The notes below the pieces were generated by a model. That model was not told the origin of the DNA. It saw only the letters and a list, made by a program, of their open reading frames with translations, and searched no databases. Positions 18,701 through 63,239 of a stretch of DNA of 64,000 nt are shown piece by piece (position 1 is the stretch's first letter; each line of letters begins with the position of its first letter). The stretch is taken from assembly GCF_018977255.1 (NCBI RefSeq), contig NW_024704752.1:14942001-15006000 (forward strand), in the 5' to 3' direction. A program made the position numbers and the translations under genes. Source of the stretch: Callorhinchus milii. Its lineage: Eukaryota.

Positions 18701-21700
18701 CAACTCCAGGTAATCTATTCCAGTAGCTGTCATCCCAAATCTCTGAGCTTCCCCATTATTTAACCACATCAATTCATTTGAGGAGAGATAAGCTGCTGCT
18801 TAACTTCTAGGCTTCCAACTGGTGGAACCACCAATCAATGCATAGGGATATATAATAATAATACTATTAATAATAATGCATTTGATTTAGCGAAAGTTGG
18901 CTTTTCTCCAGGACTTGATATCTGACAGACAATCTGCCAGGACAGAAGTGGTCAAGGAGTCAAGGGTGAAAGCAGAAAATAGAATTGGTCATCATACATG
19001 TGGAAATTCACCCTATTTCTGTAAATGACATCACCAGACAAGGACAGAGCATGAAGGTGGAGATGAGAGGGGAGGCGGTGGAGACGAATAAGAAGTCAAT
19101 CATATCGAAGACAGCAGAGAAATCAAGAAGAACGAGGAAATAGAGAGCCCTGGTCACAGTTGGACACAATGTAATTAGTAACTTTGACCAAGGCTGTTTC
19201 TGTGCTGTGGGCAACATGGAAACCAGATTGGAGAGGATCATACAGAGAATGGTAGGAGAGGAAAGTGTGAAGCTGGGAATCAATGCCTCATTTCAGGACT
19301 TTGGAGAGAAAAGGGGGTTTGGAAATGGGATTGTAGTTACAGAAAATGAATTGGTCAAAGAAAGGTTTTTTGAGGATGGGGGTAATAACGGCTGTTTTCA
19401 AGGGGTTGGGAATGGTGCCGGAAGAAAGAGGTTCACAATGTCACTATTCAGTGAAATTAAGCTTTAGAAATAAACCTGTCTACATGGGTCTGCATGCATG
19501 GTATGAAAAGAGTCAGTTAAACATAATGTTTTGACATAAGAACAGAATTCCTGGACTGATGCTGTAGTACCACACTCACCTGTTTTGTTTTTGTTTTCCA
19601 TTCACATTTGTCACAGTAGAATGCGTTTTCTTGGTCTAACTGATGATAACTAAAGAAAGCTTCAAATGATTTCTCCTGTGCAGATGAAAAATTAAAGTGA
19701 AAACAAAATCTGACAATGTTTGGGAACACTGCTTTTTATGGGATGTCGCTGTCTGCAAATTGGCCGCCTTATTCGCCAATAAATACAATTACTGCACTTT
19801 ATAGTACATCCTGTGTAGCACTTTGAGATGTTCTGGTAACATGAATGGTGGTAGATCAAATGCAAGGAAAAGCTTTGCTGTCAAGAAGCATTTTGGAGCA
19901 AATGGTAGTTTTCTACTTTCTTTCACACAACTGGAAAATCTAGGGAGTAATTTCAATCAAATTCAGTATTTGAATGTGTGTATATAATAGTTTAGAATTC
20001 AATTCTTTGGTGTTCTAGTTACCAAGCTGCCTCCCGAAAGAGTTATTTGGTTGATATTCTACTTTGTAAATTCACAAAGATTATAATCCTTGCATTTGAT
20101 ATAGAGCCTTATCAGTCTTCGAGGTGTCTCCAAGCGCTTCACAGAATATACTGTAAAGTGAATTGACTGTATATTTTCTGGGCAAAACTCAGCAGACAAT
20201 TGCACACAGCAGTGTCCTACAAACAGTCTTGCGACCAAATAATTTTTATTTATTTTGAAGGAATTATTACCCCTGGAAAAGCGATCCGCTAATTGACTAA
20301 CAACCAGGTTCCTACTTACTGCTGGGTAAACAAAGGCATGTGGAGAAAGGAAACTTGCCCAACATTTTGCCCTGCCAGGAATCGAACCCAGGGCCTCTCA
20401 CTTGTGAGGTCTCAGCTACAGGACACCAGATTAAACAGAATAAAAATTACAAATGAAATTGGTTGCTATGAATCAAAATATGAATGGAAAAAAAACACGT
20501 ACTATAGACTCATAAGGTGTATCACATGCAGGGTTATGAAGAGAAAGAGGGATATTCAACATTTCTTCTTTTTGAGTGAACTCCGATTCACATTCTGAAC
20601 ACACTGTATGCTCCTCAGTAGTAAAGCTAAAAATGTTAGTTTCTTCAACCTATAGAAAGATGAAATATAAAAGGTAAGCAAGTTTTTTTAATATCTGAAT
20701 TGTATTATTTATACTAGATCCAAAATGATAAGTAGCCACTTTCTTCCCAATTTAATAATCATATTGTAGTTTGACCACATTTGGTTAAACTATTTTGGTT
20801 AGACTACACTTGGGATACTGTGTGCAGTTCTGGTCCCCACATTATAGTACACATTATTGTATGTGGAAGTATAAAACAAACATAGTTAGAATCATCAGTT
20901 CAAATGGGACACTTAATAAGACTATTCAGAAATGGCTTGACAAAATACCTGAGGAACAAAATATCAAGTTCTTGATATCAAAATGTAGGTATTTTAGGAA
21001 GCTCAGATGTACTAAGAAAAAGTAACATCCATTCATGGGTAACATGGCTGTGTTATTTGTCGGGCTGTCCCATCACTGAAAACTATTTAGAAATTGTCGC
21101 TACAGAATGATTTGAACTGTAATAACATAATAATAATAATAAATAATAATAATCCTTGCTTTTGAAAAAGCACCTTTCATTAGGAGGATGTCCGAAAATG
21201 ATTCACAGGAATTCCTATGAAGTGGAGTGACTGCATTTGTAGGAAAAATCGGCAGCCAATTACGCACATCGATGTCCCACAAAAAGTCATCAAAAGAATG
21301 AATAATTTTATTTTATTTATTCGTTGGCGAGGACACCAAGAGAAACTCCTTTCTCTTTTTGAATAGTGCCATGGGATCTGTAACGTCCAACTGAACAGAC
21401 AGACTGGCCTTAGTTTAGCATCTCATCTGAAGGACGGCATCTCCAACAAAGCAACACCAACCCCCAACAGCTTCCTGGAGTGTCATCTTAGATTATGTGA
21501 GTCCAAGTCCTGATGTGGGGCTTTAACCCACAACCTTCTGACTCAGAGGCGAGAATGCTGCTAACTGAGCCAGGCTAACACAATTAACCAGCTAATTAGT
21601 GCTACCACCATTCATGCTCACAATATTTAGTTCACAAAGATTTACAAAAATGCACAGCACGGAACTCGCCACTTGACTCAACTAGTCTGTGTTGGTGTTT

Positions 21701-24585
21701 ATATGCCACACAAGTCTCCACCCATTTCTTTACTCCCTCCCATACCTTTCCATTCGCCTTCCCTCACATCAGGATCTAGATCCAGCTTGAATCCTCCTGG
21801 TGTCTACACTATCTGATTCAATCACCGCTTCAGGCAGTGAGTTCCACAATCTCACTACCCTCTGCATGAAGTAGTTCCTCCTACGTTTCTCTTTTTGATC
21901 CCTTGGTCACTATCTTATTTTTTAGTCCCTGGTTATGGACTCCCCAACCAGAGGAAACAGCCTATTTATGTTAACCTTACCGAACCCTGTTATCATTTTA
22001 AAAAACGTATTTGAGGTCCCTCCTTAAACATGTCTTCTCTGGCAAAAAAAGGCCCAATTATCCAAGTATCATCTTCACAAACCTATCCTGTACGCTTTCC
22101 ATCGCTGCTATATCCTTCCTACATTATGGATACCAGAATTGGACACAATACTTCAAATGTGGTCTAACCAAAGTTTTGTATAAATTCAACATCTCCTCAC
22201 CTCAGTTTCTGCAGGACTTACAGATCTATTTATACACTTTTGCTCTTCCTGGATCATATGCATGAGTGAACGAAAGAGTTCTTCAACATCCATCTGGAAT
22301 TCAACTTAAAATGAATGCAGACACTTAATAATATAATAATAATCCTTAAATTCGATACAGAGCTTTGTCATATCTTCTAGACATCTCAAAGCGCTTGACA
22401 GAATATAGTGATTTGACTGAAAACATTTTTTGTGGGTGAAACGCGGCAGCCATTGCGCACAGCAGAGTCCCACAAACAGCCATGAAGTGATTTGAAGGGA
22501 TCATTACCACCGGAAAAGTGATCGGCCAATCGACGAACAATCGGGTTCCTAATTACTGCTGAGTAAACAGAGGAGTAAGGAAACTTGCCCAACGTTTCAC
22601 CCTGCACAGGAATCGAACTCAAGTTCTCTCGCTTGCGAGGTGAGTGTTCTAACCACTAGACTCCCACTTTTATTAAAACAGCAATTAATCCAAAAAAAGG
22701 AAATCCTGTAAGAGTTTAATTCACAACAACAACTTGCATTTATCTAGTGCTCTTCATGTAAAACAACATCTTGAAACACTTCACATTGGTATGGCTGAAG
22801 TAAAAGAGAAATGGGGGGGGACCACATGAGCTATCAGATTTAGCAGATAATCTGGGAGTTTTAAACTTTATAAAGATTTATTTTAAAAGATAAAACAAAT
22901 ATATGAAACATTAGGCTTTTTATTATTCAGATTATTTTGACCTCTAATTCTCTCCCCTCCCCCCCTGAAAGATTTTGATTTGTTTTTCCTTCCACTTGAC
23001 AGTGAATAGAAATTCCACCTCGTTCTAGATTTAGACTATTTTCTTAGCAATTCAGTGTAAAAATAGATTCATTCAGTCTTCATTTTCAGAATACCTCACT
23101 CCCAATTTAGCTGAAACCCTCGTCCACACTTTCGTCACCTCCTGCCTTGACTATTCCTCTTCGACCGTGCTTACGGTCACCTCCTCCTTCCCCCTGTCTC
23201 GGCGTCAAGCTCTGCCACTGTTAAGCTCTCCGAGATGCTACCCCGCCTGAAGGGCGCTATATAGATGCAAGTTGTTGTTGAAATACAGAAATCTGTTCCT
23301 ACATTAAAGTTTCAGCTCTGAAATGTTAAGAAAATAGTCTAAATTTAGAGAAAGGCTTAACCACCTGCTCCAGGAACTGTATGATTTCAAATGTTCTGCA
23401 ATACCAATATGACATTCAGTTGACAGTAAAATTGTTCATGAAGGTAAGGAGGGAAAACATGAGACAGCACATAGATGTATGAATCTAATGATCCAAGGGT
23501 CTCTTTCTACACTTTCTAAAAGCTATTTACAGAATGGAAGAAGATTGGTTTCAGAAACAGTCATGAGTGTGCCTTCATAACTGAGAAAGTAGTGTAGGGT
23601 TATAGATGGATTTAATGATGGATGCAAATATCCTTAAAGGATAAAACAAAATACTTTCTTTTCTTACTCATTGTTAGATAAGAAACTGGTTTACCCAGAT
23701 TGTTTAAGGCTCATTGTTCAATAGGCAAGATCCAGCTATAAATAAGGTATCCATAGTTAGGTTTTTAGCATCAGTGTTCCAAGACGTTACCCTCGTGATA
23801 TAAATGCATGCTGTTGTTGTATACTCACCATTGATGTGGTGTAACTTTAAACACTGAACAAACTCTTCGACTCTCACGACTTCCTTTTTGGAATTCAAAT
23901 TTTGAAACACTTGATAGAGTTTGTACAAGACACTGTTATCCATTTCCTTCAGATTGCTTTTCCTTCCATACCTTTAACAACAAGGGTATAAAAGTTCTGA
24001 AATCCCATTTTATCAGACACACTGAAGTCCTATGCAATGCAGTGGATCAGAATGGGTAAATAAATAGATTTAATATTTTGGGTCGCATTTAACCTGAAGG
24101 AGTTACAAGTAAGTAATGCATGAAAGTTTTATCTAACGCTGTTATATTATTACCATTACTAATGGAGTTGCATTCCTGTTTTGGTACTTTAACAGATAAG
24201 AAACTGGTTTACCCAGATTGTTTAAGGCTCACCACCAGATCCCACCCAGCCCACACCACCCACTGCATCCAGTAGCAGTGAGGAAGAGCGGCATGAGGAA
24301 CCACTTCAGAAAAGGAATCCATATCCACCACAAACACGTGAATCAAAAATATTGGATATTTTTGAAGGAATGACACATTAAGTTGCACCCCTTTATATAT
24401 TAGATATTTGCAAAGGAAGTTAAAAACTATGGACTGAGGAATAGATTTGGTTGCTCAAAAACATTAGGTCAATAAAACTATAATTTACCTCATAATAATG
24501 TCTTTGTATTCTGGAATCATGTACAATGTCTGTAAAAGGACATTGACACTACAGTTTAGGCCTGTGTTGGTGAGTCCCACAAACT
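15729..24585 (-). CDS. USP18-like ubiquitin/UBL-specific cysteine protease (C19 family). Exons 24585-24489, 23971-23829, 22304-22222, 20649-20503, 19675-19580, 18264-18115, 17831-17700, 16759-16695, 15781-15729; termini uncertain (candidate ATG 25607, candidate last exon 15457-15288)
   Basis: In-phase GT-AG exons give Cys box [30 protein letters not shown], zinc-finger CSEC and [16 protein letters not shown], His box [29 protein letters not shown], and [10 protein letters not shown]. Compact catalytic-domain layout like USP18; orthology not established. Confidence 0.9.
15880..16490 (+). mobile_element. Decayed CR1 LINE 3' end
   Basis: ttgtataaaacgctggttagacctcatttag...tttactagaatgattcctgg...gaggtcatagtcttaaa...ctgggccgaatggc..tttctatgttc; same family as 40270-41550. 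Confidence 0.8.
19000..19430 (-). mobile_element. Decayed L2 RT fragment
   Basis: Minus-strand remnants [14 protein letters not shown] and [15 protein letters not shown]. Confidence 0.7.
20086..20420 (-). mobile_element. tRNA-derived SINE
   Basis: tRNA-like head (gggttcgattcctggc), body and (att) tail as in other copies. Confidence 0.75.
21128..21560 (-). mobile_element. tRNA-derived SINE, second head type (Deu-domain-like)
   Basis: Head agcctggctcagttagcagcattctcgcctctgagtcagaaggttgtggg, central ggagatgccgtccttcagatgag; related to 32541-33010. Confidence 0.7.
21640..22195 (-). mobile_element. CR1 LINE 3' fragment
   Basis: Reverse strand encodes [19 protein letters not shown]; CR1-type 3' UTR also seen at 55620-55850. 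Confidence 0.8.
22330..22665 (-). mobile_element. tRNA-derived SINE
   Basis: Head tagtggttagaacactcacctcgcaagcgagagaacttgagttcgattcctg; body shared with 34901-35230. Confidence 0.8.
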
Positions 24586-25899
24586 CTATGGAAAGAAATT
24601 GGACATCATTAACTTTGTTATAAAAGTTTTCACTACAGTACTTCCATCCTGTTGATTATATTAGCGAAAAGCTTATCAGTAGAAAATATGACCCCCCCCA
24701 TCCCTACTATAACTGCTAAAAGTATCCTCAAACATAACTTTCAATTTGTTTATATGATAAATATTTAAAAGTCAGTCAGGCCATCAACTAACCAATAGTG
24801 CAATTTTCATTATAAATTCTCCCTAAAATATTTAGTCTTCAAGTAAATAAAAAAGGCAAAATATCATAAAAGATAAAATATTAGCAAGTATTTTCCTTAC
24901 CCCCAATTTAATTAAGTGTCTCATACCCAACCCATTTACAACAGGAATCATTCTTGCTGTTCTTTACATCTTCTCTTTTGAATGGTAAGCTGACCAGAAC
25001 TGAATGAATGATCCAATGAAATAATCAGTCTAAATGACATTGTTGCTAAACATTGCAATGTTGATTGCATCTTATATTACTTGATTGTGCTGATTACACA
25101 TCACTACAAAATCATTGAAAGTAAAATAAATTGTGGAAATATCCTGGGTTTCTCTATGCTGCTTCAAAACCAACATGAATCCTCCTCCTATCCACCTCAC
25201 ACGCAGAATAATACTGAACATTTGAAGGAACAATTTCCTTTCCTCTCAGCTTCACCTCGAGGAGACACCAAAAAAGCAAATCAGAACAACTATAAATTTA
25301 CCATTCAAGAGATAGCATTGTAATAACATGGCATTCAGTTCTGGTCATCTTGCGTTCAAAAACATATGAAGTGGGTACAGAGAAGAGCAACAACATAGAT
25401 TCCTGGTGTAAATACATTGGACTATGAGACACAACAAGAGAAGTTACAATCTTGAGGAATTTTCTTGGTAGGCGATACCAACTGTTGTTAAGCTGTGTGG
25501 CAGATATTATTTGAGTACATTTCAAATGACCATTCATACACATATTATCATTTCATTTACCATCCTTTAGTGCAGGAGTGGAGTCTTGTTGTGAGGGTTT
25601 TTTCCATGGCTGAGAAATGAAATTGAAAACCGTTAGTCATTTGCAGCTTTTGAACCATTTCAAACAATCAGAGAAAACGTTCTGTGTCAGAAGAACATTA
25701 TCACATCCACATGACGCTACGCTTATGCTTGATTATGAGAGTGGGATTGAGACTTGGCACTCAAAATAGACTGCAATATCAGGAAAAGCAGATTCACTAT
25801 CACAGTACAAGGTTTAACAACATTATTTCCACACATATTTAGTATCCAGGTTCATAATTTTACCTGAGCAAGACTGAACTGGAAGACGATCGAGAGCTC

Positions 25900-27925
25900 A
25901 GTACAAGATTAGAGAGAGAGAAAAAGCAACATACACAGAGTTAGAGATGCATAGGGAAAGGCACACTCACTGAACTGTTAGAGAGAGGGAGACATAAACA
26001 TGCAGAGATCTATCAAGTGCGTCACATACTCCCTCTCTGCTTTCAAATCTGACTTAAAACCTATCTTATTTACTCTGCTCTAAGTCACTTCCCTCCCTGT
26101 CACCCAGCTTAAGCTAACACTACATCTCTGTAAAGTGATTTGATACATTTTGCTTCATGAACGGTACTACAGCCTTGCAAGCCATCACAGGAAATATATA
26201 CTTAATGATAATAATATTTTAAAAGATGAGACTTGGGTTTTACATAGATAATCTTAAAAGTGGGAGAGCAAGTTGAAAACCTGGAAAACAAATCTAATGG
26301 ATCCAAGGTTTTGTACACACATCAAGACCCATATCAAGATTTTGAACTCGTATACTGTAAGCTGACACTCCAATGCAATGCTGGTGATGCGATCCAGAGC
26401 GGGGAGTATGTGTGTAACACTTTGTGTGAGCGTAATACAATGTATGTGTGCACAATACTGTGTGCGTGTGTGTGTGTGTGTGTGTGCATATATCCAAGTG
26501 CCCATCCACCCGAAGTTGATGCCTACACAAATTTCCATTCCTCACTCCACCACAGCATAGAGAACTCTTTCAGATAGCTAGACCTGGGCATCAATTGCCT
26601 TCTTCTGTACTGTAAAATTCTATGATTCTACAAAAGGATTTGTCCTGTAATGTTCTAAGAAGGCCTTCTAATATTAAACTTTTGTTGCATTCTCACAGTA
26701 GTTACGGAGTTTGAATTACGAGGACTACCACACTCCTGGGCAACCAGTTTGGTACCAAAGTCATCTTGTGTGGAATGGTCAGAGTCACAATCATCCTGCT
26801 GCTTCCGTGACCGAGGATTGAAAACTGTGAATAATTGATAACTGTAAATGGTTTTCAGATGTTGAAAGTGTGGATGAAAATGATGTCTGAAAATGGTTTT
26901 CAGATGTTGAAAGTGTGGATCAAAAGTATTCATTCCCTGGTGTCAGTTATGGGAACGATAACGCGGATCAAGCTGAAAAACAAATCACAGATAAAAGCTT
27001 TTTTCGTTGTGCAGTTTTGCAACCTTTTCTTTTAGAACAGTACAAGCCGAGTCCAATATTATTATTCAATCATAGTTTTAGATAATGCATCCATGGTTGC
27101 AAGGTAAAAGAGTTATGAAATCCAAAAAGATCACTCCATCTAAGATCTAATCCAGAAAATTACAAAATTAGAGAGTTAGAGATGCACCTAGAAAGATACA
27201 GAGTTTAAGACACTGAGAGAGATACCGAAACATACAAACACTTAGAGATCCATTATTCTCAATTTTCTTATCGGCAATGAGACACTCCCAATTCTTGTGT
27301 ATATAGGACTTCATACCATCCCTCTGAGATATTGCAAGTTTGTCAGAAGGTTGTGGGTTCAAGCCCCACTTTGGAACTTTGAACTCACAGAGTCTAAGAT
27401 GACACTCCAATGCAGTGCTGGGATTGTGAGCTGCAGCGAGAGGTATGTGTGTAACACGATGTGTGTGTGCAACATTCTGTGTGTGTGTGCTGCCCACCAT
27501 AAGTTGATGTCCACCCAAATGTCCATTCCAAGCTACATCACTGCATAGAGCGCTTTCAGACAACTAGAACAACAACAACATAATTACATTTGTAAAGTGC
27601 CTTTCACGTCGGGAGGACGTCCCAAGGCGCTGAACAGTCAGGGATCAGGACCTGAGCGTGGGAGCAGGGTTGGGATGAGGGAGGGCAGAGGGGGTAGGAG
27701 GGCGGCTGAAGGCACACTCAAAAACAGGCACAATGGGCCTGAATAGCTCCTTCTCTATTGTAAAATGCTATGATTCTACAAAGGGATATATTTGATAGAC
27801 ATTTTTAAGAATACTGATTATCAAATAATGTAAAACAACACTGACGCATATTGTCCTGTAATGTTCTAATAAAGCATTCTAATATTAAACGTTTGATCCA
27901 TTCTCACTGTACTTATTGAGTTTAG
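25900..27925 (+). repeat. Diverged local duplication (~25900-26720 vs ~27165-27925)
   Basis: Shared agagttagagatgca, SINE-like head, gtgtgtaacac.., atgattctacaaa, tgtcctgtaatgttcta, ttctaatattaaac...cattctcac in the same order. Confidence 0.7.
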
Positions 27926-29237
27926 CATAAGGCCAGAGGCAAGTCTTACATTGCTGACCCTGTATGATCTACGAGAACTGCCATTGTTCTGGGCAACCAA
28001 TCCTTTCATCGGGACTTTAAACTCATGCATTATTGGAGATGCCATCCTTCAAATGAAACATTAAACTGAGGTCCCATCGACCTGTTAGAAATCCCATGAC
28101 ACCAATCAAATAGAAAAGAGGCTTTTTCCCAGTATCCTGGCCGACAATCTCCCAGATAAAATTAATAATTGATTTCATGGCTGTTTGTAGGTCATTGATG
28201 CGCACAATTGGAATGTCTAGTTCACCTCCAAATCCAGTCACTCCACTTCACAGTGAATCCTGTGAAGCGCTTTGGGACATCCTTCTGACCTGAAAGGCAC
28301 TATACCCAATGCGAGGATTATTAATTATTATTAATTTGTTGTTCGTTTAGATTGCACATTCACCTCAAAAATCAAAATGCATTGATGTTGCAATATTGTT
28401 TGAACATAAAACCACCAGAACATTAAGAAGCAAGATTTACCGTTTTTAGTACTTCCAAGCTGGATACATTCCTCCTAGCTTTCCTATTTTTCCCCAATTA
28501 ATTCAGAATGGGTTAAGAATGGACCAAATTCTGGCTGATCTCACCATGAGATCTCTGGTAGAGAGAATGGACCTTAATTTAACATCCTAATCATTTTTTG
28601 GTATTCTGACCATTCGTCCTCAAAACACACAGTCTTCACACACATACTTTACAATATATCCTGAGATGAAAAGCACTATAATAAATATAAGAATTGTCAT
28701 TGTCTGCAATTCTCATTCCTTTACTTAAATAGATAAATGGTGCATTTTCAATTAAAATGGCAAACTCCAATGAAGAAGGGAAACTGCAAACGAAGGTGAA
28801 ATATTCCGAGAACTTTGCTGATGGGAGGATAACTTAAATTAGCACAAAACACGCAAAATTCACGGGAAAACGATTCAGAAATCCAACCAGCAAGAGCACA
28901 GGCATTCCCTCTCCTGGTCTCTACAGAAATCAATCCAAACGCTAATCTTTTAACAACAAAACGTATAACAAAGTGGAGAATTCTCACACAGGTTTAAGTT
29001 CAAAACATTTGTACCTGGGATGAATTTCGATTCCTGACAAATGCCTCGTGTAGTGTCAGATGATTGCACAGTGGAGTCTGTGATGTATCTTGAAACATGT
29101 TGTTGTGAATATTTCTTCTGTTTGACATATTTTGCAGAGAGACGTTTGTGTTCTTACTTCTTCAGTGAAGGCAATGTTAAGGAAATTGCTTTGCCAGCTT
29201 CAGCACATCTCGCCATTGTTTAAACTTGGATAATACA

Positions 29238-29249
29238 GAAAGTGAAACT
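29238..29249 (-). promoter_or_regulatory. ISRE-like element at the presumed 5' end of the USP18-like gene
   Basis: GAAAGTGAAACT fits GAAANNGAAACT; a minus-strand donor (cccag|gtacaa) at ~29014 suggests a non-coding first exon just downstream. Confidence 0.6.
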
Positions 29250-30354: not shown

Positions 30355-30763
30355 ATGGGGAAAATCTTCCAAGTAATCGTATTGGGTTTTAAAGGAGAAA
30401 AATTTGCAATTGATGTTGCAAAAGAAGAGAAGCATTTTAATGAAATGACTGTTCTGGAGTTCAAGAAGAAATTGATTTTGAAACTTCCAGGTCACTCAGG
30501 TATGTGAGTACTACACCAGCAGTGTACATCTGACGAGAATATTCACGGGTGTGTTCAGTTTAGTTTTGGTATGGATTTTTGTTAATGTATGTACTTGTTT
30601 TGAATGATTAGGTGATACTGATGAGCTGCGCTTGCTTTTTGCCAAAACTCAACTGGAAGATGCAGATAAATTCTCTGATCACCAGATTAAGGACAAGTCT
30701 ACAATCATGATGGTTCTACGTCTACCAGGAGGACTGGAGTCTTACAAGATTGAGACAAACTAA
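30355..30763 (+). CDS. Single-domain ubiquitin-like protein precursor, 98 aa; exons 30355-30499 and 30612-30763
   Basis: MGKIFQVIVLGFKGEKFAIDVAKEEKHFNEMTVLEFKKKLILKLPGHSGDTDELRLLFAKTQLEDADKFSDHQIKDKSTIMMVLRLPGG-LESYKIETN*. Aligns to ubiquitin (QRLIFAGKQLED...STLHLVLRLRGG). Phase-1 GT-AG intron; AATAAA at ~31203 and ~31351. Confidence 0.92.
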
Positions 30764-33859: not shown

Positions 33860-33869
33860 GGGGCTTTCC
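33860..33869 (+). promoter_or_regulatory. NF-kB consensus-like site before the RBR start codon (also 41986-41995, 46800-46809)
   Basis: GGGGCTTTCC matches GGGRNYYYCC. Presence in all copies is weak evidence because the copies are recent. Confidence 0.35.
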
Positions 33870-33914
33870 ATGAGCTGTTGCTACTTAATTTTGTTCTGGT
33901 TTTCGATCGACAAG

Positions 33915-36701
33915 ATGTCAACACAAGGGCAGCAAACAGAAAAACAATACGACCCAAATGATCAGACTCTGAAATTTGTGAAAGGGAAGGATGAAATTAC
34001 AGGTAACTTTATTAGCCTCAAGAGCAGAAGTAGTTCTCTCGATTAAGTGCAGAATTGTTGTGTTTTAAGTAATCTGTAGAATAATATCCTATCATTTGCT
34101 TATCTGTATAGTTGCAAGAGAAACAATCATGGATACATCTACAAAGGATAGAAAAGTTCATTTAGATTGTTTGTGAGGACATTCGCAGTAGGCTTTTTGC
34201 ATTACTATCACTTTTGATCTCCACTTATTTATCTACAAAATAGACTATGAGGCAAAATGCGCAACAATTTTCAAAGATAATGTTCACAACTTTGGCAACA
34301 ATCTTGAAAGGAGACAAGGATAGCTATGACAACATCCAGTTCAGTCACAGCTTTTTGACTTAATTAGTTTTGCCTGTTTGTCAGGATTGCAATTAATACA
34401 GGAATCATTTTAGACATAGAAGCCAATGTTTAATAAAGCTCAGAAGCTCAAAGTCCCAGTAATTGACAAATACTTTTTCCCAGCACTGTTTGGAATCTGA
34501 AATGTGGCTCTTAATTTATTCTATTTTAGGAGATGACGACCCTAATATTTTAAGAGCAGAAATGTCCTGTGGACATGCAGTGGATCCAAATTCGCTCACT
34601 GCTTGGTGCCGAAGCCTTCTAGATCAGGTAAGCTATCTTAAAATATAATTGAATCATGTAAAATCAAAGGAGCTATATCAGTTATCTGAAAAAAAAATTG
34701 ATTTTAATGCTAGAATGAAATCAGTTTTTGTGTTTATATGTGCTATCACAATACTGCATAAAGATAGGTTTCACCGCTTACGATTCTGTCATTATGTATT
34801 TGTGCAAATAAATGATATTGCATATTCATCAATAAAGGAGGTGCCCCCAAATTGTGCTAATGATACATTGAAAAAGTTAGTTTTTTTTAATGTATGTAGG
34901 ATAATAATAATAATAATAATAATAATAATCCTTGCATTTGATATAGCGCTTTTCACGTCGGGAGGACGTCCCAAAGCGCTTCACAGAACACACTGTAAAG
35001 TGAATTGACTGTATATTTGTGGGCGAACGCGGCAGCCAATTGCGCACAGCAATGTCCCACAAACAGTCGTAGATTGAAAAAGACCAATTTTTATTATTGT
35101 TTTGGGTTTTGGAGGGATTATTATTAGGCTCTGTGTGGAGTAAGGAAACTTGCCCAAGGTTTCGCCCTCTGCCTGGAATTGAACTCAGTTCTCTCACTTG
35201 CAAAGCGAGTGCTCTAACCACTGAGCTACAGGATGGCATAGGACACTTCCGAAAACCAAAATTTGCACCATAGATTTAACAAAAAAAGGTGTATTTTAAC
35301 AAGGAAGTTCTACCTCTATACATCCATCTTTTCCAGAGTCATCTTTCACACTCCCAATCCTCCACCTTTAAATTGGTGCTCAATTATTCCTTAATGGTGG
35401 TGCCCAGTTATCACGTCCAGCCTTTGTTAGCTCCCTTTACACGTAGGTTAATTGCCAAAAATTATAAAAGGCAGTGGCAAGTTTATTCCCCTGTCACAAT
35501 GCAACGTACGTTGGGTTTTACCTGGAACCTTTTTTCCTGAAGGCTTATCAGTGAATCTTGCCATGTTATTTGGGGTTTAAACCCACAACTATGTAACCCA
35601 GAGGCAAGAGGCCTACCAGTTGCACCAGTTGATAGCATAGATCAGCTAACTCAGCTCAGAACCTCAGACTTTCTACGACTCTATGGTTTACTTTCACTGA
35701 ACCAATACTTTATTAAATAAATTATCACATGTATTTTGTATTTATTCTTTGAACTGCAGGGTCAGTATAAGTTCTTCTGTCCAGCACTGAAGGATGGAAT
35801 GACATCAAAATGTGGAGCAGAATGGTCATATCAAGAAGTTCGCAAATTGGCTGTACTGAGCTGTGAAGAACAATTATATTTTGAGGAAACAGTTGCTCAA
35901 CTGGCTGCCGCTGAATATTGTGAATATAAATCAGTAGGTTTCATGGGGAGACTTTTGAACAGTAATATACAATAGATGCCAAAAATGAAAATAATAAGCA
36001 TGTACATTAAGTAAGGGCCATAGATCATTCTTTTAAATTACTGTATTTGAGGTATTTAAAGAATTGATAATACAATACGCAATTCTACGTTACTTGTTTA
36101 AAGTGGTAATGTGGTCGCATCTATTAAGTTTCAAAGAACGACTAAGTATATAAAAAATCAAATGATCCTGAATGCTATTGCAAAATAAGGTACTGTTGAA
36201 CATGAAATTCACTAAATACCTTTCTATTTTTCTTGTCAGTGCCCAGGATGTAAAACGTTTGTTAAACGCTGTGATCTGACAAATCTGAGTGTCAGATGCA
36301 GCATCTGTACCACAGAGAGAGGAAGTGTCTATGACTTCTGTTGGCAATGCATGAACACGTGGAAGGGACATGGCCCACGATCTGATCGGTGTGACAATGA
36401 AGGCTGCAACAACCAAGAACTCGAAATACTAAAGAATTGTCCGTTAATGAACTTACCAGAAACAGAAGTGAAACAATGCCCTTCCATTCGTGCTTGCCCA
36501 ACCTGTGGCAAACTTATTGAACATAACCAAGTGGGATGTAAAAATATAACATGTTGCAGATGTTATGTTGAATTTTGCTTTGCCTGTCTGGAGGTTACCA
36601 CTGAATGCCTGAAAAGCAGACCAAATTCATGGTTTGGTATCTGTGCCAAAGCGATTGCCCCAAGGCAAACATCAATTCCAACCTGGAATCGACATGGATG
36701 A
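33915..36701 (+). CDS. RBR-type E3 ligase copy 1, 273 aa; exons 33915-34002, 34530-34627, 35760-35933, 36240-36701
   Basis: Partial RING1 (MSCGHAV...FFCPA...KCG), IBR (CPGCKTFV...CSIC...FCWQC), RING2 CPTCGKLIEHNQVGCKNITCCRCYVEFCFACL with the catalytic-position Cys; all splice phases are consistent. Confidence 0.9.
34901..35230 (-). mobile_element. Young tRNA-derived SINE in intron 2 of RBR copy 1 only
   Basis: A/B-box head, long (ATT)n tail, absent at the homologous site in copy 3 (47835 ggatggcatagg); short aggat duplication. Confidence 0.85.
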
Positions 36702-41550: not shown

Positions 41551-42040
41551 AATTAGGTAAGCAGGAAGCATCCCTTTAGGGAGAGGATGTGCATTCCATT
41601 CCAACAATCCATCTCTCGAATCTCCAGGTGTGTGGGATGCAGGGAGTTCTCAGTTTGGTTTGGATGCTTTTAAGCACGTGATGGGTTTCCACTTGGTCCA
41701 GCTGTCAAACAAAATCTGCAGAAAAAAGGCACATAAGGAATAGTACTGTACTTCTGTGATCAGGATTGGTGAGCACACCAGAGAACAGTTTGAAGATTTT
41801 GAGTCTTGTTTACTCGAGTCAATTAGAGGAAATGACTCTAAACAGCAAATTACAGTATCTGCCTGAACAAAGTGTGATTGATATTCACAATTAACGTATC
41901 AACTAGTATGCAGGATTGTGACTGTAATCTGCACTATCATTTGATTGGCAGTGAAAACTCTATTAACTTCCTGGAGTATGACACAGGGGCTTTCCATGAG
42001 CTGTTGCTACTTCATTTTGTTCTGGTTTTCGATCGACAAG

Positions 42041-45000
42041 ATGTCAACACAAGGGCAGCAAACAGAAAAACAATACGACCCAAATGATCAGACTCTGAAA
42101 TTTGTGAAAGGGAAGGATGAAATTACAGGTAACTTTATTAGCCTCAAGAGCAGAAGTAGTTCTCTCGATTAAGTGCAGAATGGTTATGTTTTAAGTAACC
42201 TTTAGAATAATATCCTATCATTTGCTTACCTTTATAGTTGCAAGAGAAACAATCATGGATACATATACAAAGATAGAAAAGTTAATTTAGATTGTTTGTA
42301 AGGACATTCGCAGTAGGCTTTTTGCATTACTATCACTTTTGATCTCCACTTATTTATCTATAAAATAGACTATGAGGCAAAATGCGCAACAATTTTCAAA
42401 GGTAATGGTCACAACTTTGGCAACAATCTTGAAAGGAGACAAGAATAGCTATGACAAAATCCAGTTCAGTCACAGCTTTTTGACTTAAATAGTTTTGCCT
42501 GTTTGTCAGGATTGCAATTAATACAGGAATCATTTTAGACATAGAAGTTAATGTTTAATAAAGCTCAGAAGCTCAAAGTCCCAGTAATTGACAAATATTT
42601 TTTCCCAGCACTGTTTGGAATCTGAAATGTGGCTCTTATTTTCCTCCATTTCAGGAGATGACGACCCTAATACTTTAAGAGCAGAAATGTCCTGTGGACA
42701 TGCAGTGGATCCAAATTCGCTCACTGCTTGGTGCCGAAGCCTTCTAGATCGGGTAAGCATTTTTAAACAATAATTGACTCATGTAAAACTACAACAACAA
42801 CAACTTGCATTCATATAGCGTCCTTCATGTGGGTAGTGTCCCGGAGCAGTTATAAGTGGCGGAGTCTGACACCGAGCCAGGGGGAGAGGGAGTGGGGAGG
42901 TGACCATACGCATGATAAAAAGGGAAAGTCTTTAGGCAGAATTTGAAAGTGGGGAGGGAGGGGGCAAAGCATAGGGATTGGGGGAGAGAGTTCCAGAGTT
43001 TCGGGATGTAGTGACTGTAAGCACGGCCGCAGTTGATGGAGCGGAGGGAGCGAGGGACGAACAGGAGGCCGGAGTCAAGCGAGCGGGGCAGTGGGTGGTG
43101 GAGCCTCGGGGGTGAGCAAGTCGGAAAGGTAGCGAGGTGCGAGGGCATGAAGGGAATATGAAAACAAGACAGAGGATCTTGAAGTCGATCCGTTTGGAAA
43201 TTGGGAGCCAGTGCAACCTGGCAAGGCTGGTGTGATGGGGGTCCGGTATTTTGTGCGGGATACTATATGGGCGGCGGAGTTCTGAATTAACTGTATTTTA
43301 TGTATGGTGGAACTTGGGACGCCAGCAAGGAGGCCATTTGAAAAGTCCAGCTGGTAACTGACAAAGGCATGGATGAGCGAGTTGACTACTGTGGGTACAG
43401 ACAGAGGCAGGCAATGTGTCGGAATGCTCGATGGCTAGCATTAGATTTTATGCTAGATTGAGATCAGTTTTCTTGCTTATATGTGCTATCACAATACTGC
43501 AAGTAGGTTTCACCTCTTAAAATTCTGTCATTATGTATTTGTATTATCATTTATAAAGGAGGTGAATGGAGGCATTAAAATAGACACCGTTTCCCCAAAA
43601 TTGTGCTAATGATACATTGAGAAAGTTAGTTTTTTTTAATGTATATAGGATGGCATAGGTCACTTCCAAAAACCAAAACTTGCACCATAGATTTAACAAA
43701 ACAAGGTGTATTTTAACAAGAAAGTTCTACCTCTATTCATGCATCTTCTCCAGACTCATGTCTCACATTCCCAAGCCAATGCCTTTATATTGGTGCCCAA
43801 TTGTCCCTTAGTGCTGGTGCCCAGTTATCACGTCCAGCCCAGGTTAGCTCCCTTTGCATGTAAGTTGATAAACATAAAATAATCATAAAAGGCAGTGACA
43901 GATTTATCCCCTTGTCACAATGTAACATAAGTTAGGTTTTACCTGGAACCTTTTCTGCTGAAGGCACTCTCTAGTCTGTCTCATATATTATTCCATTATT
44001 ACATCCAAGTAGCCATTCTCCAAGTGCAGGTCTTCTCAGTGAATCTTGCCATGTTATTTGGGGCTTAAACCACAACTATGTAACCCAGAGGCAAGCGGCC
44101 TACCAGTTACACCAGTTGATATCATAGATCAGCTATCTCAGCCCAGAACATCAGACTTTCTATGATTTTATGGTTTACTTTCACTGAACCAATACTTTAT
44201 TAAATAACTTATCACATGTAATAATAATAATGATAATAATCCTCGCTTGTTCTAGATGTCTCAACTCGCTTCACAGAATAGACTGTAAAGCGAATTGACT
44301 ATATTTGTGGGCAAAAATGAATATTGCATTTATTCTTTGAACTGCAGGGTCAATATAAGTTCTTCTGTCCAGCACTGAAGAATGGAACTACATCAAAATG
44401 TGAGAAGAATGGCCATATCAGGAAGTTCGCAAATTGGCTGTACTGAGCTGTGAAGAACAATTATATTTTGAGGAAACAGTTGCTCAACTGGCTGCCGCTG
44501 AATATTGTGAATATAAATCAGTAGGTTTCAAGGGGAGACTTTTGAACAGTAATATACAATAGATGCCAAAAATGAAAATAATAAGCATGTACATTAAGTA
44601 AGGGCCAAGATCATTCTTTTAAAATACTGTATTTGAGGTATTTAAAGAACTGATAATACAATACCCAATTCTATGTTACTTGTTTAAAGTGGTAATGTGG
44701 TCGCATCTATTAAGTTTCAAAGAACGACTAAGTATATAAAAAATCAAATGATCCTCAATGCTATTGCAAAATAAGGTACTGTTGAACATGAAATTCACTA
44801 AATACCTTTCTATTTTTCTTGTCAGTGCCCAGGATGTAAAACGTTTGTCGAACGCTGTGATCTGACAAATCTGAATGTCAGATGCAGCATCTGTACCACA
44901 GAGAGAGGAAGTGTCTATGACTTCTGTTGGCAATGCATGAACACGTGGAAGGGACATGGCCCACGATCTGATCGGTGTGACAATGAAGGCTGCATCAACC

Positions 45001-45287
45001 AAGAACTCGAAATACTAAAGGACTGTCCGTTAATGAACTTACCAGAAACAGAAGTGAAACAATGCCCTTCCATTCGTGCTTGCCCAACCTGTGGCAAACT
45101 TATTGAACATAACCAAACTGGATGTAAAAATATAATATGTATCAGATGTCATGTTGAATTTTGCTTTGCCTGTCTAGAGGTTACCACTGAATGCCTGAAG
45201 AACAAACCAGATTCATGGTTTGATGTCTGTGCCAAGGCGATTGCACCAAGGCAAATATCAATTCCAACCTGGAATCGACATGGATGA
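42041..45287 (+). pseudogene. RBR-type E3 ligase copy 2, frameshifted as assembled; exons 42041-42128, 42655-42752, 44348-44520, 44826-45287
   Basis: Same structure as copy 1, but exon 3 is 173 nt (1-nt deletion at ~44402, tgtgagaagaatgg vs tgtggagcagaatgg), giving an early TGA. Could be a sequencing error. Confidence 0.7.
42790..43400 (-). mobile_element. L2 LINE 3' fragment in intron 2 of RBR copy 2 only
   Basis: LHWLPISKRIDFKIL...GRAYSHYIPKLWNSLP; (TTG)n tail. Confidence 0.85.
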
Positions 45288-46854: not shown

Positions 46855-49314
46855 ATGTCAACACAAGGGCAGCAAACAGAAAAACAATACGACCCAAATG
46901 ATCAGACTCTGAAATTTGTGAAAGGGAAGGATGAAATTACAGGTAACTTTATTAGCCTCAAGAGCAGAAGTAGTTCTCTCGATTAAGTGCAGAATTGTTG
47001 TGTTTTAAGTAACCTGTAGAATAATATCCTATCATTTGCTTATCTGTATAGTTGCAAGAGAAACAATCATCGATACATATACAAAGATAGAAAAGTTAAT
47101 TTAGATTGTTTGTGAGGACATTCGCAGTAGGCTTTTTTCATTACTATCACTTTTGATCTCCACTTATTTATCTACAAAATAGACTATGAGGCAAAATGCG
47201 CAACAATTTTCAAAGATAATGTTCACAACTTTGGCAACAATCTTGAAAGGAGACAAGGATAGCTATGACAACATCCAGTTCAGTCACAGCTTTTTGACTT
47301 AATTAGTTTTGCCTGTTTGTCAGGATTGCAATTAATACAGGAATCATTTTAGACATAGAAGCCAATGTTTAATAAAGCTCAGAAGCTCAAAGTCCCAGTA
47401 ATTGACAAATACTTTTTCCCAGCACTGTTTGGAATCTGAAATGTGGCTCTTAATTTATTCTATTTTAGGAGATGACGACCCTAATATTTTAAGAGCAGAA
47501 ATGTCCTGTGGACATGCAGTGGATCCAAATTCGCTCACTGCTTGGTGCCGAAGTCTTCTAGATCAGGTAAGCTATCTTAAAATATAATTGAATCATGTAA
47601 AATCAAAGGAGCTATATCAGTTATCTGAAAAAAAAATTGATTTTAATGCTAGAATGAAATCAGTTTTTGTGTTTATATGTGCTATCACAATACTGCATAA
47701 AGATAGGTTTCACCGCTTACGATTCTGTCGTTATGTATTTGTGCAAATAAATGGTATTGCATATTCATCAATAAAGGAAGTGCCCCCAAATTGCACTAAT
47801 GATACATTGAAAAAGTTAGNTTTTTTAATGTATGTAGGATGGCATAGGACACTTCCGAAAACCAAAACTTGCACCATAGATTTAACAAAAAAAGGTGTAT
47901 TTTAACAAGGAAGTTCTACCTCTATACATCCATCTTTTCCAGACTCACCTTTCACACTCCCAATATACAATACACCTTTATATTGGTGCTCAATTATTCC
48001 TTAATGGTGGTGCCCAGTTATCACGTCCAGCCTTTGTTAGCTACCTTTACACGTAGGTTAATTGCCAAAAATCATAAAAGGCAGTGGCAAGTTTATTCCC
48101 CTGTCACAATGCAACGTACGTTGGGTTTTACCTGGAACCTTTTTTCCTGAAGGCTTATTAGTGAATCTTGCCATGTTATTTGGGGTTTAAACCCACAACT
48201 ATATAACCCAGAGGCAAGAGGCCTACCAGTTGCACCAGTTGATATCATAGATCAGCTAACTCAGCTCAGAACCTCAGACATTCTACGACTCTATGGTTTA
48301 CTTTCCCTGAACCAATACTTTATTAAATAAGTTATCACATGTATTTTGTATTTATTCTTTGAACCGCAGGGTCAGTATAAGTTCTTCTGTCCAGCAGCAG
48401 TGAAGGATGGAACGACATCAAAATGTGGAGCAGAATGGTCATATCAGGAAGTTCGCAAATTGGCTGTACTGACCTGTGAAGAACAATTATATTTTGAGGA
48501 AACAGTTGCTCAACTGGCTGCCGCTGAATATTGTGAATATAAATCAGTAGGTTTCAAGGGGAGACTTTTGAACAGTAATATACAATAGATGCCAAAAATG
48601 AAAATAATAAGCATGTACGTTAAGTAAGGGCCATAGATTATTCTTTTAAATTACTGTATTTGAGGTATTTAAAGAATTGATAATAAAATACGCAATTCTA
48701 TGTTACTTGTTTAAAGTGGTAATGTGGTCGCATCTATTAAATTTCAAAGAACGACTAATTATATGAAAAATCAAATGATCCTCAATGCTATTGCAAAATA
48801 AGGTACTGTTGAACATGAAATTCACTAAATACCTTTCTATTTTTCTTGTCAGTGCCCAGGATGTAAAACGTTTGTCGAACGCTGTGATCTGACAAATCTG
48901 AGTGTCAGATGCAGCATCTGTACCACAGAGAGAGGAAGAGTCTATGACTTCTGTTGGCAATGCCTGAACACGTGGAAGGGACAAGCCCCACGATCTGATC
49001 GGTGTGACAATGAAGGCTGCATCAACCAAGAACTCGAAATACTAAAGTACTGTCTGTTAATGAACTTACCAGAAACAAAAGTGAAACAATGTCCTTCCAC
49101 TCGTGCTTGCCCAACCTGTGGCAAACTTATTGAACATAGCCAAGTGGGATGTAAATATATGAACTGTACCAGGTGTCATGTTGAATTTTGCTTTGCCTGT
49201 CTGGAGCTTAAAATCGAATGCCAAAAAAGCAGACCAGCTTCATGGTTTGATGTCTGTGCTAAAGGGATTGCACCAAGGCAAACATCAATTCCAACCTGGA
49301 ATCGACATGGATGA
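46855..49314 (+). CDS. RBR-type E3 ligase copy 3, 274 aa; exons 46855-46942, 47469-47566, 48370-48546, 48853-49314
   Basis: Intact frame; RING2 CPTCGKLIEHSQVGCKYMNCTRCHVEFCFACL; 3-nt insertion in exon 3 relative to copy 1. Confidence 0.9.
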
Positions 49315-51572: not shown

Positions 51573-51584
51573 GAAACTGAAACT
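51573..51584 (+). promoter_or_regulatory. ISRE upstream of the second USP gene
   Basis: GAAACTGAAACT, a consensus match 50 bp 5' of the ATG at 51634. Confidence 0.75.
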
Positions 51585-51633: not shown

Positions 51634-54600
51634 ATGGCGATCGTTGAAAGGTTTTCTTTAAAAAATATTTGTGGTACTAAAAGGTTCGGCACCACCATGC
51701 TGTGGTTCAATGGTATTGTCGCTGTTGGATGCATATACTTTTTGTTTTGGCGGTGGAAAGGTGAGGCTAGAATCTACTTAAAAGTTACTGACTGGTAGGA
51801 ACTCATTCAGTTTCCTTTCTATTAATGCTGGGAAATGTGATGACTGAATTGCTGAACATTTTTTAAATTCGTCCAGATATAGAAAGTTTCATTCTGAAAC
51901 TCTTTGAAATGTGCTCCCGGTTAAATATACCACAAGTATTTGCTTGTGCAATTTGTGACCAGCTGCCTTCTTTAATCCACCTATGGCTGGAATCGAACAT
52001 GTAACACCCTCTCTCTCTCTCTGGAGGGACATGTCCATAGAACAATAGAAACAACAACAAAAAATTTAGCTTATTGCCTTTTACCCTGGGAGGACGTCCC
52101 AAGGACTCGAGAGGGTTGGGGGCCAAGGGGGTGGGGATGAATAGGGGTCGGGAAGACCGAAGGCACGGTCAAAGAGGAAGGTCTTGAGATGGACCTTGAA
52201 GGAGGCAAGGGAATGGGCAAGGCAAAGGGATTAGTAATAATAGTAACAATCCCTGCATTTGATATAGCGCCTTAATACATCGTTGACACATCTCAAAGTG
52301 TTTCACATAATATGTTGCAAAGTGAATTGACTGTGTTTTACCCACAGTAATTCCGAAACATTGCCCGCTTTTGCCTTTACCTCTACTCTCAAGCCCCCGA
52401 GATACTCACCCATTTAAAACATCCATCCTTGATTATGTCAAAGTTCTGTTTGCCAGACTCCGCAGTTCTTCTCTATACAAGCTGTAAACTATCCAGAACT
52501 CTACAGCCCATGTCCTCTCCAGCACCAGGCTCCTGTCGCCCCCGTTCTAAATCTATTTTCACATATTTTACAGGAGCAATTAAACGAATGTGGATGAAAA
52601 TAAAGGATAGGAATTCTTTCAAAATACAAACACCAGGTAATGTGGAAATAGCTTAATCATTTTGGTGTGCCATGTAAGCTTGAGGTTCTACTGAAACCTC
52701 ATAGAAATAATGGAAATCCTCTTCATAAAAATGCCTGTTATTTGCCAATTTGTCATTCGGATGAAATATACTAAACCCCGGTTGGCTGGACCAATGGGCT
52801 GAGGTCCGGACCAGTGAGCTGGAATTTGCGGTATTTGTCGGTATTGTAATTGTTTGAATCCTGCGAGCTGAATCTGCAGGATTCAAACTGAGTCAGAGTG
52901 GATATCCCGTCCCACTAAGTAAGCACTGTGAGGCAGGGGCGCATGCTAATAGAGGCAAGCTGGGGAAATTTTTCTGTGAACATTTCTGGATCGGGCCCGG
53001 TCTGGCAAGCTATGAATTCTGGACACTAGGAGTCTGGTCAACTGGGGGTTTGCTGTAATTTAAAACTATTCACAAACATCCACATAATGTCTCCCAGGCA
53101 GGGCAAAACATTAGGCAAGTTTCCTTACTCCACACGCCTTTATACCAAGTAAGTAGGAACCTGGTTGTTAGTCGATTGGCGGATCGCTTTTCCTGGGGTT
53201 AATAATCCCTTAAAGAAAGGAAAACTTACAAAAATAATAATAATGTGGTCACTCAATCCACGACTGTTTGTGGGACACTGCTGTGAGCAATTGGCTGCCA
53301 CGTTTCACCCACAAAATATACAGTTAATTCACTTTACAGTATATTCTGCGAAGCGCTTTGAGACGTCTCGAAGACGTGATAAGGCTGTATATCAAATGCA
53401 AGGATTATTATTATTATTATAGTGAGGAGCTAGCATCAACAAACACTTGTTGGGACAAATAGCTTAATTCCATCCTATATATTGTGATAATTACATTAAC
53501 CCACTAAATATGAACAATGGTAACATTTCATCTTCATGCTTTGACTGTTAGATAGACCTATGCTTCATCCTGAATACCACAATAAATATTGGAAAAGAAC
53601 AAGTATACTTCAGTAATATCAATGCAAATATTTGCAAATAATACAAACTAATAATAAATTATTCTACAGCTAGTTGAAAAAAAACTTCAAGCAATTAAAT
53701 CCATGTTCTTATAATTATTGTGCCTAAATGTTACTGTATTCTTTATAACTTTCAACATGAATAGTAATCAATATGTTGCAGCATCACTGCAGATTTAACA
53801 TGGCAAATGTATGCTGCCATAAGGCTTATTGGATCTCATCAAGACTTATTTTATTTATTTTTTAAAAACAGTTGGATTGATTAATCAAGGAGCCACTTGT
53901 TATTTGAACACACTGCTTCAAATATTATACATGACCCCAGAATTTAAAAATACCATTTGCAAGTAAGTAATAAAATTATTTCGCAGAATTAAAACAATAT
54001 GATTTGTTGAATCTGTAACAACTTTATAGAATCATTAGGGTAGACTTTCTATTGGTTGCTAAAGTCTATAACAATGGGAGTACACGCTTGTTATGCAATG
54101 GTCTTTCCTCATTTTAATGTGTGCATGCCAACAACATGAGTAACTTTAAGTTCAGAAGAAATTATGTTGTAATTGGTTAGATTACTATATCTTTATCTCC
54201 AAAACTCGTGTTGGATTCCTATCCAAATTCTATTTTGAAAAGTGTGTTGGTGGAATTGTTGGTTTTGTCTCTGTGTGTGCATGTGCATTCATTGTGTGTG
54301 GCAATGAGTGGGTGTAGACTTGTACATTGTGTGTGCGCATGTGTGTGGACGTGTGCATTTGTGGGCTTGTGCATGAGTCAGTGGGGATGTGCTTGTGGAT
54401 GCCTGGTGCATTTCCTCTCATCCCCTTAATACATCGAATAACTTACCAATGCTCACACTGCCTGAGTTCAAAAGTGAAGAATGGTCACCTGTGTGAGCTG
54501 TTTGGGAATCATGTCCAATGTGAGGCCTTTCCTTCAGGAAAGGAAGGGAGAAATCCCTCATATCAATATTTTCATAAAGCTTTCATTCAGATAAAGGGGT

Positions 54601-62914: not shown

Positions 62915-63239
62915 GTACAATGAGAATTACCGCATGGCACCCAGCAGATGTGAAATGCTGAGTGCCTCCTCCCAAAGAAGGGATGAAAATCAAATAGGAA
63001 ATCAGCCCGAACTGTTGTACTAATGCCCCCCCCTTTAGATGCACAACCTCAGACAAAACCATCGACTTGTCTTTTGTGTTAGGGATTATGTGTAATCGGA
63101 TGCAAATTAGACAAAGCTATTTAAAAATAGTGGACAAATTTAAATTTGATTCAACAAAGGGAAGACAGCTGATGCATCATGATAGTGGATTTTATAAAGT
63201 ATTTTAATTCTTTCAAATACCAGAATATGAGATTAACTT

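What the first reader, a model, noticed from the sequence alone, without database searches (positions are those of the whole stretch)
33915..35933. RBR ligases with a hemi-RING1: one zinc site cleanly lost
In RING1 the ligands of the second zinc site are retained (SCGH; FFCP...KCG). The four positions of the first site appear replaced by polar residues (DEIT for CxxC 1-2, DPNS for CxxC 5-6), recalling U-box/SP-RING/hemi-RING folds. RING1 is the E2-binding module, so this could reflect pairing with a special E2 or UBL. The proteins are minimal (~273 aa) with no visible TM, Ariadne or UBL domain.
Basis: partly seen in the sequence, partly recalled or inferred. Interest (0 to 1): 0.7.

Follow-up and report, generated by a model that had tools for sequence, protein, structure and literature searches.

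The report
Immune ligase beside its own tag
These are three copies of a vertebrate protein-tagging enzyme that has lost one zinc site and sits, from sharks to turtles, beside an unstudied ubiquitin-like tag gene and usually tag-removing proteases, likely forming an overlooked interferon-driven tagging system.

Summary
The spliced 273-aa gene (three tandem copies) has a RING1 that keeps zinc site 2 (C43/H45/C69/C80). Site 1 is D26/T29/D48/S51. In 253 relatives with the CxH motif, none has Cys/His at ligands 5/6, and only one tandem-fused model has an upstream CxxC. Models still give an RBR RING1 fold. The label is wrong: UBR4's hemiRING keeps the site lost here, so the pattern is SP-RING-like. 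RING2 keeps the catalytic Cys but lacks the triad His. The family was named ARIT in 2025 (interferon-gamma-induced in salmon), described as a 'typical' RBR. A spliced single-domain ubiquitin-like gene ending L-P-G-G plus a variable tail lies 3 kb upstream, and USP47-like proteases flank the array. Annotation records place this UBL next to ARIT in skates, bamboo shark, carp, a perch-like fish and turtles. Best reading: ARIT is likely the E3 of a clustered, ISG15-like conjugation system. Conjugation, the E2 partner and zinc content are untested. No E1 or E2 was found in the cluster.

The parts
33915..36701 (+). ARIT RBR ligase copy 1 (273 aa; exons 33915-34002, 34530-34627, 35760-35933, 36240-36701)
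   Evidence: 69-79% identical to shark, ray, lungfish, gar and coelacanth records
33990..34001 (+). RING1 ligand positions 1-2 replaced: D26-E-I-T29; the hydrophobic residue at 28 is kept (L181/I60 of 276)
34568..34594 (+). C43-G-H45 (site 2 kept), then D48-P-N-S51 (ligands 5-6 replaced)
35778..35813 (+). C69 and C80, ligands 7-8 of zinc site 2
36522..36545 (+). RING2 active-site loop H215-N-Q-V-G-C220-K-N222: catalytic Cys kept, triad His replaced, family-invariant upstream His and Lys
   Evidence: H215 273, C220 271, K221 271, position 222 N242/Y30 of 276; register against ARIH1 and parkin
42041..45287 (+). ARIT copy 2; exon 3 is one base short in the window, but a copy-2-type contig crosses exon 3 without a gap
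   Evidence: (table 8, X3 record 19)
46855..49314 (+). ARIT copy 3 (274 aa, intact, 90% identical to copy 1)
30355..30763 (+). Single-domain ubiquitin-like gene, 98 aa, coding exons 30355-30499 and 30612-30763, ending LRLPGG plus a 9-residue tail; non-coding exon ends at 29677
   Evidence: identical to record P0128 (NP_001280071.1)
17673..29174 (-). USP-family protease A (Cys box 24494-24586, His box 17685-17834); 5' exons 29015-29174, 26707-26972, 25561-25610; head-to-head with the UBL; 3' end not mapped
53871..62920 (+). USP47-like protease B (Cys box 53871-53957, His box 62795-62914); ends not mapped
29238..29249 (+). ISRE-like motif GAAAGTGAAACT between the 5' ends of USP-A and the UBL
   Evidence: consensus recalled
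51573..51584 (+). ISRE-like motif GAAACTGAAACT 2.3 kb upstream of the USP-B Cys box

Best explanation
The window holds three ARIT-family RBR ligase genes whose RING1 lacks the four ligands of zinc site 1, lying between an LPGG-ending ubiquitin-like gene and USP proteases, and ARIT likely acts as the E3 of an interferon-induced tagging system built on that linked UBL. Shown: the gene structures, ligand loss, retained catalytic Cys, predicted RING1 fold and linkage. Inferred steps: (1) interferon induces the cluster together; (2) a linked USP trims the UBL tail to expose Gly-Gly and later removes the tag; (3) a shared E1 and a shared Cys-reactive E2 such as UBE2L3 charge the UBL; (4) the one-zinc RING1, its first site held by an Asp/Thr/Ser hydrogen-bond network as in SP-RING and U-box domains, binds the E2; (5) the tag passes to Cys220 and then to targets, with invariant His215/Lys221 possibly standing in for the missing triad His.
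For: Ligand pattern fixed across jawed vertebrates. Model of the 79%-identical ortholog P0002: pLDDT 89. Residues 23-119 match RBR RING1 chains 1wim (Z 7.1, rmsd 3.4, 88 aligned) and HOIP RING1 7v8f (Z 6.7, rmsd 3.6, 84 aligned). For the RING1-only model the 12 best Foldseek rows are all RBR chains (best E 0.03). UBL: L-P-G-G is invariant in 8 of 8 aligned rows at 39% chimaera-turtle identity and in 6 of 6 single-domain hits, while the tails differ freely, as expected of a processed modifier. Linkage by annotation: Rhinoraja UBL XP_078266131, ARIT ...132, USP ...135/136 on one contig length; Leucoraja USP-ARIT models ...428-431 and UBL ...437; Cirrhinus ARIT QQF64_030742 and UBL _030743. Fused UBL/ARIT models in bamboo shark P0307, turtle P0159 and Scortum P0121; USP-ARIT model in a goby. 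An Atlas cluster of 117 chordate UBLs is auto-named 'ARI8 ligase'. A cichlid paper lists a USP, 'ARI5' and a Nedd8-like sequence together (PMC13076031, passages). Salmon ARIT is induced log2 11.6-13.5 by IFN-gamma; 'USP18-like' lies about 157 kb away and is induced log2 4.9 (PMC12234341). ISRE-like 12-mers: 5 in 144 kb against 0.63 expected, 0 of 300 shuffles.
Against: No biochemistry exists in what I read. None of 67 E2 matches or 22 E1 matches lies on this contig. Two distant paralogs on G000:C14 have no UBL or USP within the 70 kb scanned. The Mauremys UBL record is about 1,000 accessions from the ARIT record held. Linkage in other species rests on accession order and fused gene models, not on DNA I read, and co-regulated immune genes cluster without being enzyme and tag. 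The salmon paper lists no induced UBL other than ISG15 in the parts I read, so induction of this UBL is not shown. The ISRE pattern was chosen after seeing hits; in the window alone 5 of 100 shuffles reach the count, and two of the five sites are at no known promoter. Pro in place of Arg74 might hinder activation or processing. AlphaFold places no zinc, and I could not inspect site-1 geometry.
Confidence: 0.5

Rival explanations
1. ARIT is an interferon-induced ligase for ordinary ubiquitin or ISG15. The UBL and USPs are co-regulated neighbours, and site-1 loss is a tolerated structural swap.
For: PMC12234341 raises ISG15 ligase activity as a possibility. The hydrophobic residue at 28, W55 and P70 are conserved; these are E2-contact positions in RINGs (recalled). 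UBE2L3 binds all four RBRs tested (PMC5758712 passages), and a UBE2L3-like exon is in this genome (identity recalled). C14 paralogs stand without UBL or USP.
Against: UBL-ARIT adjacency persists across cartilaginous fish, teleosts and turtles, and the UBL keeps Gly-Gly with an unusual invariant Pro.
Confidence: 0.3
2. The UBL is a non-covalent allosteric activator or inhibitor of ARIT, binding the RING1-IBR ubiquitin site, while ARIT transfers ubiquitin.
For: RBRs are commonly switched by ubiquitin or UBL binding at the RING1-IBR site (PMC7458406 passages). ARIT has no regulatory domain of its own.
Against: A purely non-covalent ligand would not need a conserved Gly-Gly followed by a disposable tail, or linked proteases.
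Confidence: 0.13
3. RING1 no longer binds an E2, and ARIT is a scaffold or receives its tag by another route.
For: The lost site is the one next to the E2 interface, and the triad His is absent in 276 of 276.
Against: The catalytic Cys is kept in 271 of 276. RNF216 is active without the His. The RING1 fold and hydrophobic positions are retained.
Confidence: 0.07

Closest known systems
ARIT clade of RBR ligases (PMC12234341; zebrafish si:ch211-212k18.15)
   Same: Same family: the paper's supplementary alignment shows the same motifs, and its carp, turtle and echidna rows match the relatives found here. RBR only, no transmembrane segment.
   Different: The paper calls the domain structure 'typical'. 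In the main-text term look-ups and sections I read it does not note the zinc-site loss, the RING2 change, or linkage to a UBL or USPs.
Canonical RBRs (HOIL-1L, RNF144A, ARIH2, HOIP, parkin)
   Same: RING1-IBR-RING2 order, RING1 fold, catalytic Cys position.
   Different: One zinc site instead of two in RING1; no triad His; invariant upstream His; no accessory domains.
SP-RING (Siz/PIAS, Nse2 SUMO ligases)
   Same: Keeps the distal zinc and lacks the proximal one. It is the E3 fold of a UBL pathway.
   Different: Weaker fold match (2yu4 Z 3.4, rmsd 2.8, 61 aligned; 7p47 Z 3.3) than RBR RING1 (Z about 7), and it sits in a Cys-relay RBR; likely convergence.
UBR4 hemiRING
   Same: Single-zinc RING hybrid.
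   Different: Opposite site retained.
ISG15-USP18 system
   Same: Interferon-linked UBL with a tail after Gly-Gly, a related USP clade and inducible E3s.
   Different: One domain, not two; ends LPGG, not LRGG; tag, ligase and proteases are genomically clustered. Separate tandem two-domain UBL genes, likely ISG15, lie on contig C8 (identity inferred).

Membership tests
RBR E3 ligase | RING1-IBR-RING2 order | tested here: met
RBR E3 ligase | RING1 with canonical two-zinc cross-brace ligands | tested here: not met
   site-1 ligands absent family-wide; fold retained. Filed as a variant RBR for this reason.
RBR E3 ligase | Catalytic Cys in RING2 | tested here: met
   C220 in 271 of 276; aligns with the ARIH1 and parkin active-site loop
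RBR E3 ligase | Cys-His-Glu/Gln triad (not universal) | tested here: not met
   N or Y at the His position, E231 kept in 266 of 276; RNF216 also lacks the His
RBR E3 ligase | E2 binding and thioester relay activity | not testable with these tools
   needs biochemistry
ARIT clade | Sequence clade with RBR only and no transmembrane segment | tested here: met
ARIT clade | Interferon induction | not tested
   shown for salmon in PMC12234341; here only ISRE-like motifs
UBR4 hemiRING | Proximal zinc kept, distal zinc lost | tested here: not met
   reverse pattern
SP-RING | Distal zinc kept, proximal zinc lost | tested here: met
   (ligand pattern only)
SP-RING | Homology to Siz/PIAS/Nse2 | tested here: inconclusive
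   no RING-type Pfam hit; Z 3.3-3.4 against about 7 for RBR RING1
Conjugatable ubiquitin-like modifier (linked UBL) | Ubiquitin fold | tested here: met
   PF00240 over cut-off; Atlas model TM 0.73-0.87 to ubiquitin-like models
Conjugatable ubiquitin-like modifier (linked UBL) | Conserved C-terminal Gly-Gly at the ubiquitin 75-76 position with a removable tail | tested here: met
Conjugatable ubiquitin-like modifier (linked UBL) | E1/E2 activation and covalent attachment | not testable with these tools
   needs biochemistry
ISG15 | Two UBL domains ending LRLRGG | tested here: not met
   one domain ending LRLPGG; ISG15 end as

The most novel reading that the evidence does not exclude
Jawed vertebrates carry a second, overlooked interferon-induced ubiquitin-like conjugation system encoded as a compact cluster: an LPGG-ending tag, its dedicated RBR ligase (ARIT, with a one-zinc SP-RING-like RING1 and a rewired His/Lys active site) and dedicated USP47-like processing proteases. 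ARIT itself is reported in monkeys but lost in humans.
Probability: 0.45. Interest if true: 0.92.

Novelty: new variant of a known kind. Interest (0 to 1): 0.78.

Why it matters
All RBR RING1 domains are described as canonical RING folds. A one-zinc RING1 kept across sharks, fish, turtles and mammals shows that the E2-side zinc can be replaced, and it offers a natural test of what RING1 needs. If the linked UBL is conjugated, this is a new vertebrate modifier pathway with tag, writer and eraser named by linkage and testable in vitro at once. It would be relevant to fish antiviral immunity and to what was lost on the way to humans.

Tried and rejected
1. Upstream coding exon supplying CxxC: rejected.
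2. Compensatory Asp/Thr swap between positions 29 and 48: the pattern is DDTS 65, DTTS 14, DTDS 11 of 120. It follows lineages and is not counted as covariation.
3. Lamprey membership: P0095 nests among perch-like fish (100/99), so it was not counted; the range is stated as jawed vertebrates.
4. Sequence searches of the PDB did not detect RING1.
5. A longer-protein search gave 6 hits among 8000 scored candidates, all fish gene models that look tandem or fused.
7. No listed run is on record as RNA; only joints and cover are used.
8. Trout 'polyubiquitin-like' genes induced by virus (PMC11258392, one passage) could not be tied to this UBL and are not used.
9. Pfam scan of the 150 longest of 222 flanking ORFs found a RhoGEF/SH3 gene and a GPCR but no E1 or E2.
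10. Literature: ten searches listed no paper on a one-zinc RBR RING1 or on this UBL as a modifier. The library lacks most subscription papers, and bioRxiv 693333 (term look-up in main text only) has supplements I could not see.
11. Four look-ups of earlier scan findings returned nothing.

Full report
Observation. The coordinates cover the first three exons of a four-exon, 273-aa gene that ends at 36701. Two more copies follow at 42041-45287 and 46855-49314. Contigs of runs guessed to be RNA join the exons at GT..AG and run on unspliced upstream of the ATG. Copy 2 is one base short in exon 3 in the window, but a copy-2-type contig crosses that exon without a gap, so the break may be an assembly error or an allele.

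Zinc ligands. A search with exon 4 gave 298 relatives, of which 120 were returned, from cartilaginous fish, ray-finned fish, coelacanth, lungfish, turtles and platypus. With cluster members added, 276 distinct sequences under 400 aa were aligned. Site 2 is kept (C43 258, H45 255, C69 260, C80 261; the rest mostly gaps). Site 1 is D26, D/T29, T/D48, S51. None of 253 sequences with the CxH motif has Cys or His at ligands 5 or 6, and one tandem-fused model has an upstream CxxC. The replacement residues are themselves conserved, which suggests a hydrogen-bond network (inference). RING2 keeps C220 (271) and E231 (266), has N or Y where the triad His belongs, and has near-invariant H215 (273) and K221 (271).

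Fold. The ortholog P0002 (79% identical) stood in for the spliced window protein. It modelled at pLDDT 89. Foldseek and VIA-align rank RBR ligases first; residues 23-119 match RING1 chains 1wim (Z 7.1) and 7v8f (Z 6.7), above SP-RING chains (Z 3.3-3.4). These Z values are middling by the tool's own scale, but the top 11 rows of the wide search are all RBR chains. A RING1-only model (pLDDT 86) returned RBR chains in its first 12 rows, none at E below 0.001. Atlas features for residues 1-120 point to RING and RBR clusters at 0.81-0.85, a lead only.

Naming. PMC10873205 (passages and section 9) defines the hemiRING as keeping the proximal zinc and notes that SP-RING keeps the distal one. This domain has the SP-RING pattern inside an RBR. 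PMC12234341 (passages, sections 3.2 and 3.7, supplement parts 2-3 of 4) named the clade ARIT: strongly IFN-gamma-induced in salmon cells, present in reptiles, elephant and monkeys, not found in hominoids, function untested, domain structure called typical. Its alignment shows the same ligand loss in mammals without comment.

Neighbourhood. The read overlay revealed a spliced plus-strand gene 3 kb upstream. It encodes a 98-aa ubiquitin-like protein ending LRLPGG plus nine residues, identical to a record named only 'ubiquitin-like'. Its C-terminal half aligns to ubiquitin with Pro at Arg74. A second copy 11 kb left of the window ends LRLPGG with a different tail. USP proteases with intact Cys and His boxes lie on both sides, and a third lies just right of the window. 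USP-A and the UBL start head-to-head around an ISRE-like motif; five such motifs fall in 144 kb against 0.63 expected, with the caveat that the pattern was picked after the fact.

Conservation of the cluster. Consecutive accessions or locus tags give UBL-ARIT-USP in Rhinoraja, USP-ARIT and UBL in Leucoraja, and ARIT-UBL in Cirrhinus. Turtle UBL and ARIT accessions interleave in several species. Fused models join UBL and ARIT in bamboo shark, loggerhead turtle and Scortum, and USP and ARIT in skates and a goby; these are probably annotation read-throughs of neighbours. Salmon 'USP18-like' lies about 157 kb from ARIT.1. Trout LOC110500498 and LOC110500501 are both listed as raised in a parasite-infection study (PMC8467531, one table passage). 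A cichlid paper lists the three genes together but reads the UBL as Nedd8 (PMC13076031, passages). L-P-G-G is present in every family UBL seen, with unrelated tails. Against: C14 paralogs have no such neighbours in 70 kb, one turtle UBL record is far from its ARIT record, and no E1 or E2 match lies on this contig.

Mechanism. The shown parts are a catalytically intact variant RBR, a modifier-like UBL and proteases kept together across cartilaginous fish, teleosts and turtles. I infer an ISG15-like writer-tag-eraser module that borrows a general E1 and E2 (0.5). The main rival is an ordinary ubiquitin or ISG15 ligase with co-regulated neighbours (0.3). Whether the zinc loss is tied to the UBL is not shown; the parallel with SP-RING, the E3 fold of the SUMO pathway, is suggestive only.

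Verdict. The feature is real and family-wide, in a family that is named but unstudied. The one-zinc RING1 and the UBL-ligase-protease cluster were not found described in ten literature searches of an incomplete library. New variant of a known kind; interest 0.78.

Noticed in passing
G000:C14:13856275-13867059 (L001-L002), minus strand: Two tandem distant ARIT-like genes (39% identical in the last exon). They also lack RING1 ligands 5-6 and keep an upstream His and the catalytic Cys; the first exon was not found; no UBL or USP within 70 kb.
   Followed up: partly
G000:C11:14930264-14930632 (L036/L046), minus strand: Second LPGG-UBL gene, about 80% identical, tail GGMS, just downstream of a RhoGEF/SH3 gene.
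   Followed up: partly
G000:C11:15017237-15023643 (L041), minus strand: Third USP47-like gene, facing USP-B, with an ISRE-like motif about 0.8 kb upstream of its Cys box.
   Followed up: partly
window 33351-50099: The duplicated unit begins near 33351, so copies 2 and 3 do not carry the ISRE-like region at 29-30 kb. A LINE-like insertion (about 40186-41355) sits upstream of copy 2. Copy-2-type and copy-3-type joints are nonetheless seen in contigs.
   Followed up: partly
window 10300-11300: GC-rich island, probably the promoter of the minus-strand RhoGEF/SH3 gene whose exons lie left of the window (L045-L046).
   Followed up: no
P0097, P0101, P0103, P0145, P0104, P0046, P0105, P0147: A second ARIT subfamily (CKY in RING2, one residue shorter loop) groups shark paralogs with turtle and monotreme genes (96/97), so tetrapod ARIT may descend from a paralog not found in this genome.
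   Followed up: partly
P0095: Record labelled Lampetra planeri nests among perch-like fish; possible contamination or mislabel.
   Followed up: partly
L042:3838-4923: Intronless rhodopsin-family GPCR right of the cluster.
   Followed up: no
P0396, P0415: Skate UBL tails end GRRC and GKCC, short Cys-ending tails that could be lipid-modified before processing (speculation).
   Followed up: no
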